The position numbers and the translations under genes are program-made. A stretch of DNA of 59,005 nucleotides, filler included, from Stramenopiles sp. TOSAG23-2 (Eukaryota), in NCBI GenBank assembly GCA_900128395.1. It is 3 parts of 3 records of this genome, joined end to end, with 100 filler letters (N's around TTAATTAATTAA, not from the genome) between each part and the next. Parts side by side here need not be neighbours in the genome. Positions count along the whole stretch, not along the records: positions 39,453 to 59,005 come from LT649579.1; 2 more parts are not named here. One strand, written 5' to 3'. This document shows positions 3,971 through 58,471 of the stretch, one piece after another. Position 1 is the stretch's first letter; every line of letters begins with the position of its first letter. Below the pieces are notes generated by a model, which worked only from the letters and a program-made list of their open reading frames with translations, was not told the DNA's origin and did not search any database.

Positions 3971-5726
3971 CTATTGTTTTTCACCCGCCCCTTCCAAAAA
4001 TAGAAAATGACTTTTCAAAACATTGAATAATTCCCCTCTTATCTCTTGATACTTTGCATCAAACGCTAAATTCACAACTTCCCCATCTTCAGGTACAAAT
4101 CGCTTATCCGTGTGTCTGCGCAAGTCATATAGTTCAGGATATACACAAGTACCTTCAATTGCTTTTAATTTTTGGCCATCCCATTTACAGAAGATCGAAA
4201 ATCTAAAATTACTATATGTATAAACTGAAAATCCCATGTAATCAATTAAATTTCTTGGTGTCATGGCGCATGGGACTGTATAATACTTTCCATCTTCTTT
4301 CTGATCCCACACGCATTCATTTGGGGTACCACTTGTAGCATACGAAAGCGTGCAATTCTTACATCTACTAATTTGACTAAATGCATATTTTTTCAAAATT
4401 GATGTGGAAACATTTACATTATTATTATTATCAATAGAATCACCTAAAGTAGTATATAAAGCTTTCGTCAAATCAATTCCAGGTATATAAAAGGGTATCT
4501 TTGGTAGACCGGCTAATGCTACCACTGTTGGGAATATATCAACTAACTCTACTGGATAGTTATATTGTTCATTTGTTATTTTTCTATTTTGCACATTCTT
4601 TTGTATCGAAGAAGCAGCTGGTTTTATAATTAATGGTATTTGCAAACTAGTTTCCATTAAATTCATCATTGACCACATATTGAATTCTCCAAGGTTTTGT
4701 CCATGATCAGCCATTAAAATAATATTTGTATTTTCCATTAAATTTTTATCTTCCACATATTTCAAAAGTAATCCAATCATATTATCTACATGTGTTATAC
4801 CAGAATAATAATCCCTTCGTAATTTCTGTTGCATAGATATAGGAAGGTAAGAATCATGCGTAACTTGTCTAATATTTGAATACATATCTATTTCGGTTGG
4901 ACGAAACTGTGGAGCGTAGCGTATGAAAAGTTATATGTGTTAGAGGGTGTATATCTTTTTTGGGTTTACGGAAAAAATAGAATTTACTTACCCATTCCAA
5001 TCTAGATTTTGTTGTGGCATTTAAATTTTGTGCTACTTGAATATTGCTACTGTTTTTATAAAACTTTTTTGCAATAGCATCCGGATAACTCCAAGGTAAT
5101 CTAGGAGATTGGAAACCAACTGCAAGAAAGAAATTGTTATTGGAAGTGCTGTTTTTCTTAAAATAGTCAATTCGTTTTGTTGCCTCAATATAAGTTAAAT
5201 AATCAACATCTGAAAAATTGCTGCTGACATTGTTAAATGGGCAACTCATTGTATCATTTGGACATAATGGCTTCACAGGAAAATAGGGATAATCTGTCCA
5301 TGAGTTCGGAAAATCAAATTTCGGGGGAAGTTTTGGATGGAAAATCTTTCCGACAGACGTGGTATAATACTTATTCTTTTTAAAATATTCCGGCATAGTA
5401 ATCCAGTCGTCTCCAACATTTTTTTCTCTAAATGAATCTACAAAGTTATATGCTTTAGTTTCATTTGGGTATCTGCCAGTCAAAAAAGAATTACGAGATG
5501 GGGAACACCATGGAATCTGACAGTATGCACGAGCAAAAGTGGTTCCACCGTACCCTATTGAATCCATATTCGGCGTTTTAGCCTCTACATTGGTGTAAGA
5601 AGATAAGGCTGGTCGAAGATTATCTACAACAATTAATAAAATATTACTTGAAGCACTAGCTTTATCAACAAATATAATCAACGATAATAATGGCAAAAAA
5701 AAGAATAGTTGATAAAAAAATATCAT
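3971..5726 (-). CDS. Secreted sulfatase (iduronate-2-sulfatase/choline-sulfatase-like), two exons: 5726-4992 and 4906-3971
   Basis: Signal peptide; NILLIVVDNLR; formylglycine motif CSPSR-NSFLTGRY; GKIFH; ADHG. An 85-nt phase-0 intron (GTAAGT at 4991 to CAG at 4907) joins LEW to FRPTEIDMYSN in frame. Confidence 0.92.
4907..4991 (-). other. Spliceosomal GT-AG intron, 85 nt
   Basis: Minus strand reads TGG|GTAAGTAAATT...CTCCACAG|TTT. Removing it fuses the two sulfatase ORFs. Confidence 0.88.
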
Positions 5727-47797: not shown

Positions 47798-48874
47798 TTA
47801 TAATTTACTCTTTATTTTATTACTAATGTCACTATCATTCAATTCACCTAATGCTACACCGAGAGGCCATTGTGCTCTTAATACATTGTCACTACTGCCA
47901 ATATCAAATGAAGTTGCAAAAAAAAATGTTGCACTACTGCTAAACATATTCAATAAACCATCAACAATTACCGTTAATGGTCTTCTTGCCTCTGCAAAAA
48001 AACTTAATGATGATTCTGTTCTCCCTTTTTTCCCACTGTTTAAATTAATCTTATTATCTTTACCTTCCACTAAAGACAACGTTTGAAAATGTTGTGTAAT
48101 AAGTTGCACCGCTTCACGTTTCGGCACTAAGCGATCCGCTAAACCTGCTTCTTTTCCTATACTGCCAGCTAATTCGATCACTACAAATGTACCGCGTATT
48201 TTAAAATTTGGCGATTCATCTTTGATTAATTGCCACATTGAATTCTCTAAGCTTGCATATTTATCAGTAGGTGAATCGCTTAAACGATTCATGGTACCAA
48301 TCAAATCAGTTCGAAACGATAAAAATTTATCCTCCTTAGTAGAAAGATCATTATAAGCTACTTGGGAGGAGCTGCCACCACATGACAAGACACCAATAGA
48401 ACCGCTTCCAGATCTACCACCTGTAAAAATAGGAATGGCGCCAGGCAATGCATGCTTTGCTATGTATCGCACAGCAGCTAATTCCAATTCAGCTTCTTCT
48501 GCACCAGAATATTGAACAAATTTTGCATTTTCAAATTGTCTATGTAAAATTTCTTTGAATCGTTCTACTTGACTGTATGTTACAATTCCTTCATCTAGCG
48601 CTTTACGTAAGCCACCCGTTGCTCCTACAGTCAAATTCATGGAGCTGAAATAATCTGGGCGACTTATGTTTGAGTCTAATTTCTCCAATGCATTTTTTAA
48701 ATCTTCTATAAATAGCTCTTGCTTGTCCTTTGATAAAGCAATGGCAAGGGTTGGTATTATGCCTGATGGAATATAAAGATCTTCATGAATGTATCCATCA
48801 TTATGATATGAATATTTCGACAACCTAGAAGAGCCTGATCCACAATCAATTACATATACAGGCTGATTATTCAT
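47798..48874 (-). CDS. GDA1/CD39 (apyrase/NTPDase)-like ASKHA-fold protein, soluble and divergent
   Basis: ACR1 VIDCGSGSSR, ACR2 GATGGLR, ACR3 SGAEEA, ACR4-like SCGGSSSQ, ACR5 WPLG. Confidence 0.75.
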   Translation of the reverse strand: MNNQPVYVIDCGSGSSRLSKYSYHNDGYIHEDLYIPSGIIPTLAIALSKDKQELFIEDLKNALEKLDSNISRPDYFSSMNLTVGATGGLRKALDEGIVTYSQVERFKEILHRQFENAKFVQYSGAEEAELELAAVRYIAKHALPGAIPIFTGGRSGSGSIGVLSCGGSSSQVAYNDLSTKEDKFLSFRTDLIGTMNRLSDSPTDKYASLENSMWQLIKDESPNFKIRGTFVVIELAGSIGKEAGLADRLVPKREAVQLITQHFQTLSLVEGKDNKINLNSGKKGRTESSLSFFAEARRPLTVIVDGLLNMFSSSATFFFATSFDIGSSDNVLRAQWPLGVALGELNDSDISNKIKSKL

Positions 48875-49250
48875 ATTGTGTTGTGTATTTTGTACATATG
48901 TCAGTGTATCGATCGAATGCTTGTCTAACTATATATATATGTTTGCCAGTTTGTTACATGTGCATGTAGATGATGATTGCCAGGATTGCCCAGGATTTAG
49001 TAGATTATTGAAATTAAAATCATCATCCCTATTCCGAAATGCTGATGCTATTATAATGCTAGCTCTTACCAGCAAAAGGCTATAATATATTACAATAACA
49101 ATACCAGGTACCCACCACCAAATAATAAAAAAGATACCGAAGGCCGAGTGCCCGAGAAGAAGATTTATTAAAAAACAAAACATAGATTAGTACCAAAGAA
49201 TACACACAGATATATTGTATACAAAATCAAAAATATTTACAATACAAAAT

Positions 49251-49772
49251 ATGTTTTCAATTGTTGCGAAAAGAGCTTTTACTGTTGCGGCTACTGTTGG
49301 TGGAGCTGCTGCATTTACTACATATAATACTAATTATAATAATAATAATAATAACAAATTTTTAAGAGCACATTGTCAAGTACCATGTGGAATTTATGAT
49401 GACTCTGGGCGTATTGATACATTGAAAGAAGATGCAACCACGATCAAAAAGGCTATGGACAGTGTGAAAAATATGGGAGGAAGTTACGAAGAAGATCCAA
49501 AAAATTTAAACCAAGCAGTAAGATGGATTAATACAAAGGAGCAACATGCAAGCCATATTATCACGACGGTTTCGGAATACTTCTTGACTCAAAAAGTGAA
49601 AGATGTCGGAAAATCAGATGCAAACTATGATGATTATTTAATTGCACTTGCATTGCATCATAAAGTCATGCGATTAGCAATGAAAGCAAAGCAAACAATG
49701 GATCCAAAGGTAGCAGATGAATTACAACATGCTATTGGACATCTTGGAGCATATTATGGAAAGTCAAGTTAA
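49251..49772 (+). CDS. sodN: Nickel superoxide dismutase precursor with a 40-aa N-terminal presequence
   Basis: Nickel hook HCQVPCGIYDD at 49371; NQAVRWINTKEQHA, YFLTQ, AMKAKQ. Confidence 0.95.
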   Translation: MFSIVAKRAFTVAATVGGAAAFTTYNTNYNNNNNNKFLRAHCQVPCGIYDDSGRIDTLKEDATTIKKAMDSVKNMGGSYEEDPKNLNQAVRWINTKEQHASHIITTVSEYFLTQKVKDVGKSDANYDDYLIALALHHKVMRLAMKAKQTMDPKVADELQHAIGHLGAYYGKSS

Positions 49773-49995
49773 CAAAAAATGAAAAATTATGGACTTTGAC
49801 AAACATATATTTAAAAATATAAGATGGTTAAAATCTATGATATCATATTAGATATGATTAAAGTTATCATATTTATCATATAAAATAATTTTACTTCCTA
49901 TAAAATGATGGTTTAATATGCATGCAAGATGCATATATATATATATGTATCTTTAATCACAACAAAATATTATTACCAACGTGTAATATATATAT

Positions 49996-50576: not shown

Positions 50577-51233
50577 TTAAGCATTCACTTGAGTTGTATT
50601 ATTATTATTATTATTATTATCATTATTTCCGGTTTCTTTATTATTGCCTTCTGCTGATTTGCCACGATTCTTTTTCTTTTTCTTCTTCTTTTTCTTCTTC
50701 TTTTTACCAGTTCCTTGTTGACCAGCATCGTTTGCAGCCTCCATAACCTTTTCATCTTTTGTTTCATTTGCATTTACAGTTACTTCTGGTGCAGGTGGAT
50801 TAGACTCGGTTTTGGTAGAAGCTGTCTCTTCTTCCTTTTTCAAATTTTGCTTTGCTTTTTCTTCGTCTTCGCGTTTTTTCTTAGCAGCTAATTCATCTTG
50901 TTCTTTCTTTAAACGTGCTGCTTCCAATTGTTTTGCTTTTTCTTCGTCTTCGCGTTTTTTCTTAGCAGCTAATTCATCTTGTTCTTTCTTTAAACGTGCT
51001 GCTTCCAATTGTTTTGCTTTTTCTTCGTCTTCGCGTTTTTTCTTAGCAGCTAATTCAGCTTCTTCACGTTTCTTTGCAGCTAATTCAGCCTTTGCTGCTA
51101 CTTCCGCTTCTGCTTTCTTAGCTGCTAATGCTGCGTTTTCATTTGCAGCACTTGCATTATTTTCTCCATCTTTAAAACCGACAGTTGGTAAGGTATCATC
51201 AACTGCATCGTCTTTTGAACACATAGAACCCAT
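50577..51233 (-). CDS. Putatively dual-acylated (MGxxCS) protein with Lys/Glu/Ala-rich helical repeats and a poly-Lys tail
   Basis: MGSMCSK start; 27-aa repeat ELAAKKKREDEEKAKQLEAARLKKEQD; long Lys run. Confidence 0.75.
   Translation of the reverse strand: MGSMCSKDDAVDDTLPTVGFKDGENNASAANENAALAAKKAEAEVAAKAELAAKKREEAELAAKKKREDEEKAKQLEAARLKKEQDELAAKKKREDEEKAKQLEAARLKKEQDELAAKKKREDEEKAKQNLKKEEETASTKTESNPPAPEVTVNANETKDEKVMEAANDAGQQGTGKKKKKKKKKKKKNRGKSAEGNNKETGNNDNNNNNNNTTQVNA
50847..51056. repeat. 81-bp coding tandem repeat, about 2.6 copies
   Basis: gctttttcttcgtcttcgcgttttttcttagcagctaattca recurs at 81-bp spacing. Confidence 0.9.
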
Positions 51234-57013: not shown

Positions 57014-58471
57014 TTATTCTCTTTTTTTATTTTTTTCTATCATGTCCCTTAAATATACTACCAATTCCTTTACACCATCACCAGTCATTGCACTTATTGG
57101 AAATATTTCTCTGCCATCAGCTACATTTACTAATGATTGAAATTGTTCCTCTTGATGTAATAAATTCTCCAAATCATCATCGTCGAACGCATCTATTTTA
57201 TTTGCAATGATCACGGCATCTTTATTTCCCAATCCATCCTCGTATAAATTCAATTCTTCTTGCAATGATCGTAAAACTTTGCCAGCAGGTGGGTTGAATT
57301 GGTCAGACACATCAATTACATACGCATGAATACGATTGCGTTCAACATGGCGTAAAAAGGAATGTCCCAAACCAACATTATTATGTGCACCATCAATTAA
57401 GCCAGGTATATCAGCAACAGAGAATCTATGGCCATCATCAAATTCTACCATACCAACAAATGGATGAAGGGTTGTAAAGGGGTATGCAGCAACTTTTGGG
57501 CGTGCTTTTGATACCATTCCAAGCAATGTTGATTTACCTGCATTTGGATATCCTACTAGACCAACATCAGCAATTAATTTCAATTCTAACTCATAAAACC
57601 GTTCCTCGCCAGGTTTACCAAGATTAGGCCTTGGTTCATTATTTTCCAACACATCTTTAATAAGCATATTGTTATTATCAAGTTCTTTACTTTCATTACT
57701 ATACAAAGGAAATGGGGAAAATACCTGTACCCCGTCATCGTCATAAGTTACATACATTTCACCTATATCTGGTAAATCGTCTTCTTCACCTTCAAAAAAA
57801 TGTTCTTCCATATTTTCTAAATTTTCAATCATATCATCCATCTTTTGCTGTTGCAATAATTTTTGTTTTTCTTCTTGTATTTTTTTTTGTTTGAAATATT
57901 TTCTCCCAGCACTTTCTGAAAATACTAAATGTTGGTTTCCACGCCCACCTTTACCACCATAGGCCCCAATATGCTCTATACCTGGTTGATCCATGTCTAT
58001 CGAAACAGTTTGTTCCTCAGTTATATCTCCATATTCATCATAACTACGATGTATTTCCTTTACCAAGGTGCCTAGTGGAACGTCAATATATACATTTTTG
58101 CCATTTTTTCCAGTACAATTTGATGAGCTGCCATTCCCACCATCTTTAGCTCGGTAATGATGTGATGATATGTTCAAAGATCGCAAGCCACTGTCGGTGC
58201 GTATAATAGCATTACCCCCATCTCCAGCGTCACCACCATCCGCGCGTTTCTTCCCTGGTCCTAAATGTTCATGAGATTGGCATCCTAAACCGCCATTGCC
58301 ACCAATTAAAGAAACACGTACACGGTCAACAAATTTACGTCGATTATCAGCATATTTCACTTGCATATATTTTGTGCCAGCTTTATTACTTTTCGTGGAC
58401 AAATTTCTTCGTTGATGATGAAATATAGCAGAAACATTTCGTGGTATATATTGTTTGGAAATACAATACAT
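57014..58471 (-). CDS. MTG2: Obg-family GTPase, probably mitochondrial (MTG2/GTPBP5-like)
   Basis: Basic presequence (RRNLS); FVDRV...GGNGG Gly-rich Obg fold; ELKLIADVGLVGYPNAGKS, YPFTTLHP, DIPGLI.GAH.N.GLG..FLRHVER, NKID, SA. Confidence 0.88.
   Translation of the reverse strand: MYCISKQYIPRNVSAIFHHQRRNLSTKSNKAGTKYMQVKYADNRRKFVDRVRVSLIGGNGGLGCQSHEHLGPGKKRADGGDAGDGGNAIIRTDSGLRSLNISSHHYRAKDGGNGSSSNCTGKNGKNVYIDVPLGTLVKEIHRSYDEYGDITEEQTVSIDMDQPGIEHIGAYGGKGGRGNQHLVFSESAGRKYFKQKKIQEEKQKLLQQQKMDDMIENLENMEEHFFEGEEDDLPDIGEMYVTYDDDGVQVFSPFPLYSNESKELDNNNMLIKDVLENNEPRPNLGKPGEERFYELELKLIADVGLVGYPNAGKSTLLGMVSKARPKVAAYPFTTLHPFVGMVEFDDGHRFSVADIPGLIDGAHNNVGLGHSFLRHVERNRIHAYVIDVSDQFNPPAGKVLRSLQEELNLYEDGLGNKDAVIIANKIDAFDDDDLENLLHQEEQFQSLVNVADGREIFPISAMTGDGVKELVVYLRDMIEKNKKRE

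What the first reader, a model, noticed from the sequence alone, without database searches (positions are those of the whole stretch)
49251..49772. Eukaryotic nickel SOD with a mitochondrial-type presequence ending exactly at the nickel-hook His
Seen: a 40-aa leader (MFSIVAKRAFTVAATVGGAAAFTTYNTNYNNNNNNKFLRA) with no acidic residues, a basic start and a short Ala/Val/Gly hydrophobic stretch, followed directly by HCQVPCGIY. Arg sits at -2 from His. Established: NiSOD needs a free N-terminal His1. Bacteria generate it with the S26-family peptidase SodX, and several algae use ubiquitin-SodN fusions. Neither a ubiquitin moiety nor a sodX gene is seen on this contig. Inference: organellar import processing matures the enzyme, either MPP via the R-2 rule or the S26-family inner-membrane peptidase acting on a bipartite signal. 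That would imply a mitochondrial Ni-SOD and nickel delivery to the organelle.
Basis: partly seen in the sequence, partly recalled or inferred. Interest (0 to 1): 0.8.

Follow-up and report, generated by a model that had tools for sequence, protein, structure and literature searches.

The report
Stand-alone eukaryotic nickel SOD with signal-type leader
A marine protist gene encodes a nickel superoxide dismutase whose 40-residue leader looks like a weakened bacterial export signal, so the enzyme is probably activated by a general signal-type peptidase, most likely in the mitochondrial intermembrane space.

Summary
Window 49251-49772 (+) is an intronless, expressed eukaryotic gene for a 173-aa NiSOD precursor, and its 40-aa leader ends exactly at His41 of HCQVPCGIY.

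The leader is not a classic matrix presequence. It has three parts: n (MFSIVAKR), h (AFTVAATVGGAAAF) and c (TTYN...KFLRA). This layout is shared with about 100 bacterial homologues that carry Sec-type signal peptides ending AxA|H.

In 201 Planctomycetota genomes, SodX occurs only with the other NiSOD class (HCDGPCG, short non-hydrophobic leaders). It was over cut-off in 7 of 11 such genomes and in 0 of 29 genomes with only the window's class. Arg at -2 is kept in only 2 of 18 eukaryote-clade leaders. Small or aliphatic residues at -1 and -3 are nearly universal. This points to an S26-type general peptidase, not MPP, ubiquitin or SodX.

The 18 eukaryote-clade leaders have much less hydrophobic, Ala/Gly-rich cores than the bacterial ones. 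Their n- and c-regions are also longer, and they differ from this organism's own secretory signals.

I read this as retargeting to the mitochondrial inner membrane: stop-transfer, cleavage by IMP, and a soluble intermembrane-space NiSOD (about 0.45). ER signal peptidase is the main rival (about 0.25). No targeting predictor or experiment was available.

The parts
49251..49772 (+). NiSOD precursor ORF, 173 codons plus TAA, no intron
   Evidence: Pfam PF09055 105.9 bits. PolyA-RNA contigs run colinear over 49245-49970.
49251..49274 (+). Leader n-region, M1-R8 (MFSIVAKR), net charge +2
   Evidence: Seven of these 8 residues are identical in the 75%-identical relative P0002.
49275..49316 (+). Leader h-region, A9-F22 (AFTVAATVGGAAAF): 14 uncharged residues, Ala/Gly-rich, no Leu or Ile
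   Evidence: best 11-residue Kyte-Doolittle mean is 1.70, against 2.25-3.74 for five secretory N-termini of the same window. GC of codons 1-22 is 0.42, against 0.32 for the window.
49317..49370 (+). Leader c-region, T23-A40 (18 residues), holding a poly-Asn tract (N30-N35, 49338-49355) and ending L38-R39-A40
   Evidence: The tract varies in length between environmental variants (N6 or N7; 3-letter gaps in RNA contigs). It is absent from P0002.
49368..49373 (+). Predicted cleavage site A40|H41 (between 49370 and 49371)
   Evidence: The solved Streptomyces NiSOD chain starts at the aligned His. The -3/-1 pattern is conserved. Cleavage itself is inferred.
49371..49397 (+). Nickel hook, H41-Y49 (HCQVPCGIY)
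   Evidence: H, C, Q, P, C, G, I and Y are invariant in 40 aligned homologues.
49371..49769 (+). Mature domain, 133 residues, four-helix bundle
   Evidence: AlphaFold2 helices at 51-75, 83-115, 126-148 and 152-170, pLDDT 87-98 per 10-residue block over residues 51-170. The top Foldseek hits are all Streptomyces NiSOD, with target-normalised TM 0.67-0.80.
49188..49190 (+). In-frame TAG, 21 codons upstream of the ATG
   Evidence: (open frame 49191-49772).
49773..49970 (+). 3' untranslated region, as far as an RNA contig reaches
   Evidence: record 2 of run X1 (49552-49970). Contigs cannot show the true RNA end.

Best explanation
The gene encodes a precursor of a class-B nickel SOD (hook HC[QE][VI]PCGI[YF]). 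An uncultured marine stramenopile inherited it from bacteria that export this enzyme with a Sec-type signal peptide and have no SodX.

Proposed mechanism. The short basic n-region (MFSIVAKR) and the weakly hydrophobic Ala/Gly core (AFTVAATVGGAAAF) take the precursor through TOM and into TIM23. There the core arrests as a stop-transfer segment in the inner membrane. The inner-membrane peptidase IMP1/IMP2 is the mitochondrial S26A homologue of bacterial leader peptidase. It cuts after L38-R39-A40 on the intermembrane-space side and frees His41. The free N-terminal amine, with Cys42 and Cys46, then binds Ni(II). The result is a soluble intermembrane-space NiSOD, in the compartment that corresponds topologically to the bacterial periplasm.

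Shown here: the gene, its expression, the leader anatomy, the class-B/no-SodX link, the conserved -3/-1 pattern, and the systematic weakening of the leader in eukaryotes.

Inferred: the peptidase, the organelle and nickel loading.
For: 1. Genuine and expressed.
- Pfam match, NiSOD fold, and a solved chain that starts at the aligned His.
- 12 contig pieces from 4 RNA runs of 4 studies cover 49245-49970. Pieces from 3 of the runs span the leader colinearly, with no joint.

2. No SodX route in this class.
- In 201 Planctomycetota genomes, 40 have PF09055.
- 11 are class A: HCD[GA]PCG[VI]Y, leaders of 9-33 aa, KD11 -0.72 to 1.39. All 11 have a SodX-like match: 7 over cut-off, 10 on the same contig next to sodN.
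- In the 29 genomes with only class B, 0 have SodX over cut-off. My hand-computed Fisher test on 7/11 versus 0/29 gives p = 1.8e-5.
- 0 of 5 further genomes with the window-type gene have SodX.
- No conserved neighbour exists in 80 bacterial loci; the largest neighbour family is in 8 of 80. tblastn with a LepB-like query finds nothing in them.

3. S26-type site. Position -1 is A/S/N/C in 17 of 18 eukaryote-clade leaders and A/G in 100 of 100 others. Position -3 is A/L/V/T in 18 of 18.

4. Shift away from an SRP/Sec-type signal.
- The eukaryote clade is 20 rows, SH-aLRT 95. It holds all 9 eukaryote-labelled rows and none of the 5 rows with bacterial names.
- Core hydrophobicity has a median of 1.70 against 2.52 (p = 6.6e-10). 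Ala+Gly make up 60% of the core against 27%, and Leu 7% against 25%.
- The c-region median is 12.5 against 7 residues (p = 9e-4). It exceeds 10 residues in 9 of 18 against 3 of 100. The n-region median is 8 against 4.
- Five secretory N-termini of the same window score 2.25-3.74 and are Ile/Leu/Phe-rich.

5. Selection on the leader. Residues 1-21 are 20/21 identical to P0002, while the mature domains are about 82% identical. The Ala/Gly core persists in a 32% GC genome.

6. One clade member, P0005, has a 27-residue N-part with 6 Arg before the core. That is a textbook bipartite layout.

7. The stop-transfer route, with IMP1/2 cleavage releasing soluble intermembrane-space proteins, is established (PMC8061763, passages read).
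Against: - No targeting predictor (TargetP, MitoFates, SignalP, DeepLoc) could be run, and nothing was localised.
- The n-region is short (8 residues, +2) with only one Arg in the first 22 residues. That is weak for a matrix-targeting part.
- An 18-residue c-region is long for any S26 peptidase. IMP specificity outside yeast and human is unknown to me.
- Weakly hydrophobic signals can still enter the ER post-translationally (recalled, not tested).
- The in-genome comparison rests on only five secretory N-termini.
- 'Bacterial' status of 95 of the 100 comparison leaders rests on tree position, not on names.
- The class of 10 of the 29 class-B-only genomes rests on Pfam score alone; their loci were not read.
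- The organism's genome is not held, so IMP1/2, other SODs, SodX and nickel transporters could not be checked.
- The intermembrane space has an oxidising Mia40 system that could threaten the two thiolate ligands (inference).
Confidence: 0.45

Rival explanations
1. ER/secretory route. The leader is a cleavable ER signal peptide. The ER signal peptidase complex (Sec11, S26B) cuts at A40|H41, and the NiSOD is secreted or sits in an endomembrane compartment such as a food vacuole. Nickel is picked up there or from sea water.
For: - The n/h/c layout and the -3/-1 site fit a signal peptide equally well.
- The bacterial ancestors are Sec-exported by sequence.
- A transferred bacterial signal peptide would by default engage the ER (established knowledge).
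- There is no ER-retention or PTS1-like C-terminus; the protein ends YYGKSS.
Against: - The core hydrophobicity of 1.70 is below all five secretory N-termini of the same window (2.25-3.74), with no Leu or Ile.
- The whole eukaryote clade has moved to weaker cores and to longer n- and c-regions. Selection for ER entry would not favour that direction.
- c-regions above 10 residues occur in 9 of 18, which is atypical for ER signal peptidase substrates (the usual 3-7 residues is recalled).
- P0005 carries a 27-residue Arg-rich N-extension.
Confidence: 0.25
2. Dedicated or unknown protease outside the organelles. The leader is a propeptide, possibly a membrane tether on the cytosolic face. It is removed by a SodX-like or other specific protease encoded elsewhere in the genome, giving a cytosolic NiSOD.
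For: - SodX-dependent maturation is the established bacterial mechanism for class-A NiSOD (family TIGR02754).
- The genome is not available, so a distant SodX cannot be excluded.
- High conservation of leader residues 1-21 (20/21) could reflect recognition by a specific enzyme.
Against: - SodX never accompanies class-B NiSOD in the bacteria sampled: 0 of 29 and 0 of 5 over cut-off.
- Class-A leaders recognised by SodX are short and non-hydrophobic, unlike this one.
- No S26 motif appears in the 59-kb window (crude scan).
- A 14-residue uncharged core has no obvious role in a soluble propeptide.
Confidence: 0.13
3. Matrix import with MPP cleavage by the R-2 rule. MPP cuts between A40 and H41, giving a matrix NiSOD.
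For: - R39 is at -2 and the leader has no acidic residue.
- Its closest relative also ends RA|H.
Against: - Arg at -2 occurs in only 2 of 18 eukaryote-clade leaders and Arg at -3 in 0 of 18.
- The same Arg occurs in 9 of 100 bacterial leaders, so it is not a eukaryotic adaptation.
- Several clade members have Asp or Glu close to the site (P0005, P0013, P0017, P0034, P0038).
- A 14-19-residue uncharged core would arrest in TIM23 rather than pass (PMC8061763).
- The leader has few Arg residues.
Confidence: 0.07

Closest known systems
Stand-alone (ubiquitin-less) eukaryotic NiSODs, e.g. Bigelowiella natans 125878, Guillardia theta 112465 and the UBQ-lacking diatom paralogues (PMC6332867; PMC4460010; passages read)
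   Same: Same kind of gene. The B. natans model is hit P0117, and Lotharella (P0011) and an MMETSP sequence (P0010) fall in the same 20-row clade. As those papers report, the clade branches with bacterial NiSODs.
   Different: In the passages I read, neither paper says how these forms get a free His1 or where they reside. SignalP and TargetP were applied only to ubiquitin proteins. The host here is an uncultured stramenopile. A 58%-identical cluster carries a MAST-4 label, so this is probably a heterotroph.
SodN-SodX system of Streptomyces, cyanobacteria and class-A Planctomycetota
   Same: Same enzyme family and fold, the same need for cleavage exactly before His1, and a small residue at -1.
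   Different: The hook is HCD.PCG.Y, leaders are 9-33 residues and non-hydrophobic, and a dedicated S26 protease gene lies next door. The window's protein fails the NCBIfam sodN equivalog (36.1 bits against a cut-off of 90), has a hydrophobic leader, and its class never co-occurs with SodX.
Ubiquitin-NiSOD fusions of marine algae
   Same: A eukaryotic solution to the same problem of exposing His1 precisely with a general cellular protease (PMC4460010).
   Different: No ubiquitin is present here. RNA contigs run colinear through the 40-residue leader, and there is no RLRGG in any frame. One diatom NiSOD is listed as cytosolic in PMC8777261; whether that isoenzyme is ubiquitin-fused was not stated in the passages I read.
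Bipartite stop-transfer precursors of the mitochondrial intermembrane space (cytochrome b2, cytochrome c1, Smac/DIABLO, Ptc5, Prx1; PMC8061763)
   Same: Basic residues directly before a moderately hydrophobic uncharged core, then a polar stretch and an S26 (IMP) site. In Smac/DIABLO, as recalled, the newly made N-terminus is itself the functional motif.
   Different: The N-part here is only 8 residues, with no obvious separate MPP site. This is a resemblance of layout only. No import, cleavage or localisation was tested.
Exported bacterial class-B NiSOD (Planctomycetota, Phycisphaerae, Myxococcota and others)
   Same: 51-65% identical mature domain, the same hook, and the same n/h/c leader ending AxA|H.
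   Different: The bacterial cores are Leu-rich and strongly hydrophobic (median 2.52), with 7-residue c-regions. The eukaryotic ones are Ala/Gly-rich (median 1.70) with longer n- and c-regions.

Membership tests
NiSOD (Pfam PF09055, Sod_Ni) | Pfam model over the gathering score | tested here: met
   105.9 bits against 25, E 2.8e-30, residues 39-170.
NiSOD (Pfam PF09055, Sod_Ni) | Nickel hook H-C-x-x-P-C-G-x-Y at the start of the mature chain | tested here: met
   H41-CQVPCGIY. It is invariant in 40 homologues. His aligns with residue 1 of chain 1q0d_A.
NiSOD (Pfam PF09055, Sod_Ni) | Four-helix-bundle fold of solved NiSOD | tested here: met
   The AF2 model has mean pLDDT 83.7 and four helices. 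Foldseek ranks 1-10 and 13 are all Streptomyces NiSOD, target-normalised TM up to 0.80, best E 4.9e-3. No hit reached E <= 0.001.
NiSOD (Pfam PF09055, Sod_Ni) | Free His1 amine, nickel binding and SOD activity | not testable with these tools
   Needs protein chemistry.
SodN equivalog (NCBIfam TIGR02753, the characterised actinobacterial/cyanobacterial type) | Score over the curated cut-off | tested here: not met
   36.1 bits against 90. The protein belongs to a divergent class (class B here).
SodX-dependent maturation | A dedicated S26 protease gene (TIGR02754) beside sodN or elsewhere in the genome | tested here: inconclusive
   None in the window, but the checks were crude. The organism's genome is not held. 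In bacteria with the same class, 0 of 29 and 0 of 5 genomes are over cut-off, against 7 of 11 for class A.
Ubiquitin-NiSOD fusion | Ubiquitin ending GG directly before His1 | tested here: not met
   A 40-residue non-ubiquitin leader precedes His41. RNA contigs are colinear over 49245-49441. No RLRGG in six frames.
Matrix presequence cleaved by MPP (R-2 rule) | Arg at -2, conserved among orthologues | tested here: not met
   Present in the window, but in only 2 of 18 clade leaders and in 9 of 100 bacterial ones.
Matrix presequence cleaved by MPP (R-2 rule) | Arg-rich amphipathic leader without a long uncharged hydrophobic core | tested here: not met
   There is a 14-residue uncharged core, with one Arg in residues 1-22. 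Amphipathicity was not computed.
Bipartite stop-transfer intermembrane-space presequence | Positively charged targeting part at the N-terminus | tested here: inconclusive
   8 residues with net +2 in the window; 27 residues with +6 in clade member P0005.
Bipartite stop-transfer intermembrane-space presequence | Moderately hydrophobic uncharged core right after basic residues, followed by an S26-type site | tested here: met
   K7-R8, then a 14-residue core with KD11 1.70. Position -3 is L and -1 is A.
Bipartite stop-transfer intermembrane-space presequence | Import through TOM/TIM23 and cleavage by IMP1/2 | not testable with these tools
   Needs import assays or mutants.
Sec/ER-type cleavable signal peptide | n/h/c layout with small residues at -3 and -1 | tested here: met
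Sec/ER-type cleavable signal peptide | Core as hydrophobic as the organism's other signal peptides, and a short c-region | tested here: not met
   1.70 against 2.25-3.74 for five window ORFs. The c-region is 18 residues, against a bacterial median of 7. The sample of own signals is small.

The most novel reading that the evidence does not exclude
This would be the first nickel enzyme of mitochondria: an intermembrane-space NiSOD in marine stramenopiles, chlorarachniophytes and other protists. It would have arisen when a periplasmic, leader-peptidase-matured bacterial NiSOD was retargeted to the topologically equivalent compartment. It would be cut there by IMP, the mitochondrial homologue of the same peptidase. 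It would do the job that Cu/Zn-SOD does in the intermembrane space of yeast and animals, and it would imply nickel supply to that compartment.
Probability: 0.4. Interest if true: 0.8.

Novelty: new variant of a known kind. Interest (0 to 1): 0.6.

Why it matters
NiSOD is active only with a free His1. So far three solutions are in view: SodX in bacteria, ubiquitin fusion in algae, and nothing stated for the stand-alone eukaryotic forms.

This analysis shows that the window's class of NiSOD, in bacteria and eukaryotes alike, carries a signal-type leader and is not accompanied by SodX. That makes general S26 signal peptidases a third maturation route.

If the eukaryotic leaders do sort to the intermembrane space, three things follow:
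- Many marine protists would guard that compartment with nickel rather than copper and zinc, which bears on nickel demand and on trace-metal economy in the ocean.
- It would be a clean case of a bacterial periplasmic protein being converted to a mitochondrial one through a conserved peptidase.
- The claim is directly testable with leader-reporter fusions and yeast imp1, imp2 and sec11 mutants.

Tried and rejected
- PDB by single sequence: no hit at E 1e-3. The profile search gave only E 0.008.
- Whole-genome search of the window's organism: no genome is held.
- Earlier findings of this scan: nothing for this genome or sequence.
- Second protein search with a profile of the eukaryote clade: no new clade members beyond about 19 clusters.
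- Metagenome scan with a back-translated clade motif: 3 loci only. One is identical to the window, one is the MAST-4-labelled relative and one is bacterial. No new leaders and no synteny information.
- RNA contigs: there is no cover upstream of 49245. Because these are contigs, that is not evidence for a transcript start. The two loose ends are a 33-letter overlap with an unrelated 624-letter record (X2) and 9 letters (X11).
- First careful tree run did not finish in time. The quick IQ-TREE run was used instead, so supports are SH-aLRT only.
- Plastid targeting was considered and dropped. The same leader layout occurs in a MAST-4-labelled lineage and in chlorarachniophytes, and cleavage directly at His leaves no transit peptide.
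- Rhomboid cleavage was dropped, because the site lies 18 residues outside the core.
- Literature: I found no paper on mitochondrial, periplasmic or MAST NiSOD with the term sets. Dupont et al. 2008 (Environ Microbiol) is not held. It may already describe leader classes.
- Supplementary figures and tables of PMC4460010 (S13 Fig) and PMC6332867 could not be seen. They may list these sequences.

Full report
**1. What is there**

It has 173 codons. A 40-residue leader without acidic residues has R39 at -2 and A40 at -1, followed by H41-CQVPCGIY.

An in-frame TAG at 49188-49190 and the lack of an upstream in-frame ATG fix M1 as the start in this window.

- The protein matches Pfam Sod_Ni at 105.9 bits, cut-off 25.
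- An AlphaFold2 model built on 40 homologues gives four confident helices over residues 51-170 and a low-confidence leader.
- The best Foldseek hits in the PDB are all Streptomyces NiSOD chains, with target-normalised TM 0.67-0.80. The best E-value is only 4.9e-3.
- A profile of the family aligns His41 with residue 1 of the solved chain 1q0d_A.
- The protein fails the NCBIfam sodN equivalog, 36.1 bits against 90. It therefore belongs to a divergent class.

**2. Host and expression**

The window is eukaryotic nuclear DNA of about 32% GC, with mostly intronless genes. These include DNA ligase I, NAC-alpha, Kri1, DcpS, PCIF1, a PfkB kinase, an amino-acid transporter, a sulfatase and PhoD.

The PfkB kinase has unnamed environmental relatives at 91% and 77% identity. 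Its best named hits, at 53-57%, are mostly diatoms and other stramenopiles, with a few plants lower in the list.

A NiSOD cluster 58% identical to the window's protein holds a EukProt entry labelled Stramenopile-MAST_4. I therefore take the host to be an uncultured marine stramenopile, probably a heterotroph. This is not proven.

Of the sequencing runs found, 22 rows from 12 studies hold part of the stretch. Fifteen are on record as RNA, and many are polyA or oligo-dT libraries.

Twelve contig pieces from 4 RNA runs of 4 studies cover 49245-49970. Pieces from 3 of the runs span the leader colinearly, with no joint. So the leader is in the mRNA, and no ubiquitin exon is spliced onto His41.

**3. 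Where the leader comes from**

Among the 120 best homologues, nearly all have a leader that ends exactly at the hook.

A quick IQ-TREE of 120 mature domains gives a 20-row clade with SH-aLRT 95. It holds all 9 rows I could label eukaryotic from source names or cluster mates. It holds none of the 5 rows with bacterial names.

The other rows, and 80 loci fetched from prokaryote genomes, are mostly Planctomycetota and Phycisphaerae. Myxococcota and others also occur.

Their leaders are textbook Sec-type signal peptides. They start MKK or MKR, have a Leu-rich core and end AxA|H.

**4. No SodX with this class**

I sampled 201 Planctomycetota genomes. Forty have a Sod_Ni match, and they split in two.

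Class A, eleven genomes:
- Pfam scores of 146-170 bits and the hook HCD[GA]PCG[VI]Y.
- Leaders of 9-33 residues that are not hydrophobic (KD11 -0.72 to 1.39, 11 loci read).
- All eleven have a SodX-like match. Seven are over the TIGR02754 cut-off, and ten lie on the same contig within a few hundred bases of sodN.

Class B only, twenty-nine genomes:
- Pfam scores of 59-121 bits.
- In the 19 loci I read, the hook is HC[QE][VI]PCGI[YF], and the leaders are 21-44 residues with KD11 2.14-3.20.
- The other 10 are assigned by score only.
- None of the 29 has SodX over cut-off. Nine have weak matches (28-48 bits) in LepB-sized frames elsewhere in the genome.

My hand calculation of Fisher's test on 7/11 against 0/29 gives p = 1.8e-5.

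Further checks agree:
- Five further genomes carrying the window-type gene have no SodX.
- The 80 loci share no conserved neighbour. The largest neighbour family is in 8 of 80 loci.
- tblastn with a LepB-like query finds no relative in those loci.

The window's hook and its Pfam score (105.9 bits) place it in class B. Class-B NiSOD therefore appears to be exported and matured by the general leader peptidase in bacteria. That last step is inferred.

**5. Which cleavage rule**

I compared 18 eukaryote-clade leaders with 100 others. Four rows were dropped: P0001 (the same gene as the window), P0003 and P0117 (truncated gene models), and P0004 (replaced by its cluster mate P0150, which has the shorter call).

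| Position | 18 eukaryote-clade leaders | 100 other leaders |
|---|---|---|
| -1 | A13, S2, N1, M1, C1 | A94, G6 |
| -3 | A, L, V or T in 18 of 18 | not tallied in this report |
| Arg at -2 | 2 of 18 (the window and P0002) | 9 of 100 |
| Arg at -3 | 0 of 18 | not tallied in this report |

This is the -3/-1 rule of S26 peptidases, not an MPP motif.

**6. What changed in eukaryotes**

| Feature | Eukaryote clade | Others | p |
|---|---|---|---|
| Best 11-residue hydrophobicity, median | 1.70 | 2.52 | 6.6e-10 |
| Ala+Gly in the core | 60% | 27% | |
| Leu in the core | 7% | 25% | |
| c-region length, median | 12.5 | 7 | 9e-4 |
| c-region above 10 residues | 9 of 18 | 3 of 100 | |
| n-region length, median | 8 | 4 | 0.005 |

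Five secretory N-termini encoded in the same window score 2.25-3.74 and are Ile/Leu/Phe-rich. They belong to a furin-repeat protein, a sulfatase, an LVIVD protein, ORF 52040 and PhoD. The NiSOD core scores 1.70 and has no Leu or Ile.

The Ala/Gly core is kept against the genome's AT bias. GC is 0.42 for codons 1-22, 0.13 for the poly-Asn part and 0.32 for the window.

Residues 1-21 are 20/21 identical to the relative P0002, whose mature domain is about 82% identical. The poly-Asn tract is missing in P0002 and varies in length among environmental variants. The distance from core to site is therefore not tightly constrained.

One clade member, P0005, has a 27-residue N-part with six Arg before the core. 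That is a classic bipartite layout.

**7. Reading**

A leader that keeps the S26 site but loses SRP-grade hydrophobicity, and gains a longer basic N-part, fits the stop-transfer route into the mitochondrial intermembrane space. There IMP1/IMP2, the homologues of bacterial leader peptidase, release soluble proteins (PMC8061763, passages).

The layout recalls yeast cytochromes b2 and c1 and Mcr1, and human Smac/DIABLO, whose function also depends on the new N-terminus. This is recalled, not tested.

My probabilities are:
- Intermembrane space with IMP cleavage: about 0.45.
- ER signal peptidase, giving a secreted or endomembrane NiSOD: about 0.25.
- A dedicated protease elsewhere in the genome: about 0.13.
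- Matrix import with MPP cleavage: about 0.07.

That some general S26 peptidase makes His41 I hold at about 0.7.

**8. Known or new**

Stand-alone NiSODs of eukaryotes are in print. They are reported to branch with bacterial sequences, below the ubiquitin fusions (PMC4460010 and PMC6332867, passages).

In what I could read, neither paper addresses their maturation or location. TargetP and SignalP were used there only on ubiquitin proteins.

A diatom NiSOD is listed as cytosolic in PMC8777261 (passages).

My searches found nothing on mitochondrial, periplasmic or MAST NiSOD. Dupont et al. 2008 and the supplements were out of reach.

The gene is therefore a new member of a known group. The maturation route proposed for the group is a new variant.

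Noticed in passing
L001-L080 and L102-L120 (bacterial loci): A large bacterial NiSOD class (hook HC[QE][VI]PCGI[YF]) occurs in Planctomycetota, Phycisphaerae, Myxococcota, Verrucomicrobiota and others. It carries Sec-type signal peptides and is never accompanied by SodX in the genomes sampled. This implies a periplasmic NiSOD matured by the general leader peptidase.
   Followed up: partly
window 49251-49370, against protein P0122: The EukProt gene model for this same gene (152 aa, mature part identical) reads part of the leader in another frame and then splices onto A|HCQ. The public model has therefore lost the true leader.
   Followed up: partly
window 49338-49355: The poly-Asn tract inside the leader differs between environmental variants: six or seven Asn, and one variant with Ile. 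It is absent from the 75%-identical relative.
   Followed up: partly
window 49191-49250: Other environmental variants (P0001, P0124, P0125 and others, 191-192 aa) have an in-frame ATG 18 codons upstream of M1. The window lacks it, and the first three codons of that extension do not match the window's DNA. The reason is not resolved; an (AC)n indel or another allele are possibilities.
   Followed up: no
window 3971-5726 (-): A sulfatase is split into two ORFs that overlap by 17 bases (3971-4885 and 4869-5726). Each matches one half of Pfam Sulfatase. This may be a frameshift, a sequencing error or a very short intron.
   Followed up: no
window 47798-48874 (-): This gene is divergently transcribed from the NiSOD gene across a 376-base spacer. 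It encodes a 358-aa protein with only a weak GDA1/CD39 nucleoside-phosphatase match (15.2 bits, below cut-off) and no signal peptide.
   Followed up: no
window 50577-51233 (-): A 218-aa Lys/Glu/Ala-rich protein has three near-identical repeats and a poly-Lys run. It starts MGSMCSK, which looks like an N-myristoylation/palmitoylation start. No Pfam family matched.
   Followed up: no
window 57014-58471 (-): An Obg-family GTPase (TIGR02729, 283 bits) has a basic N-terminal extension without a hydrophobic core. It is a candidate matrix presequence of this organism and looks unlike the NiSOD leader.
   Followed up: no
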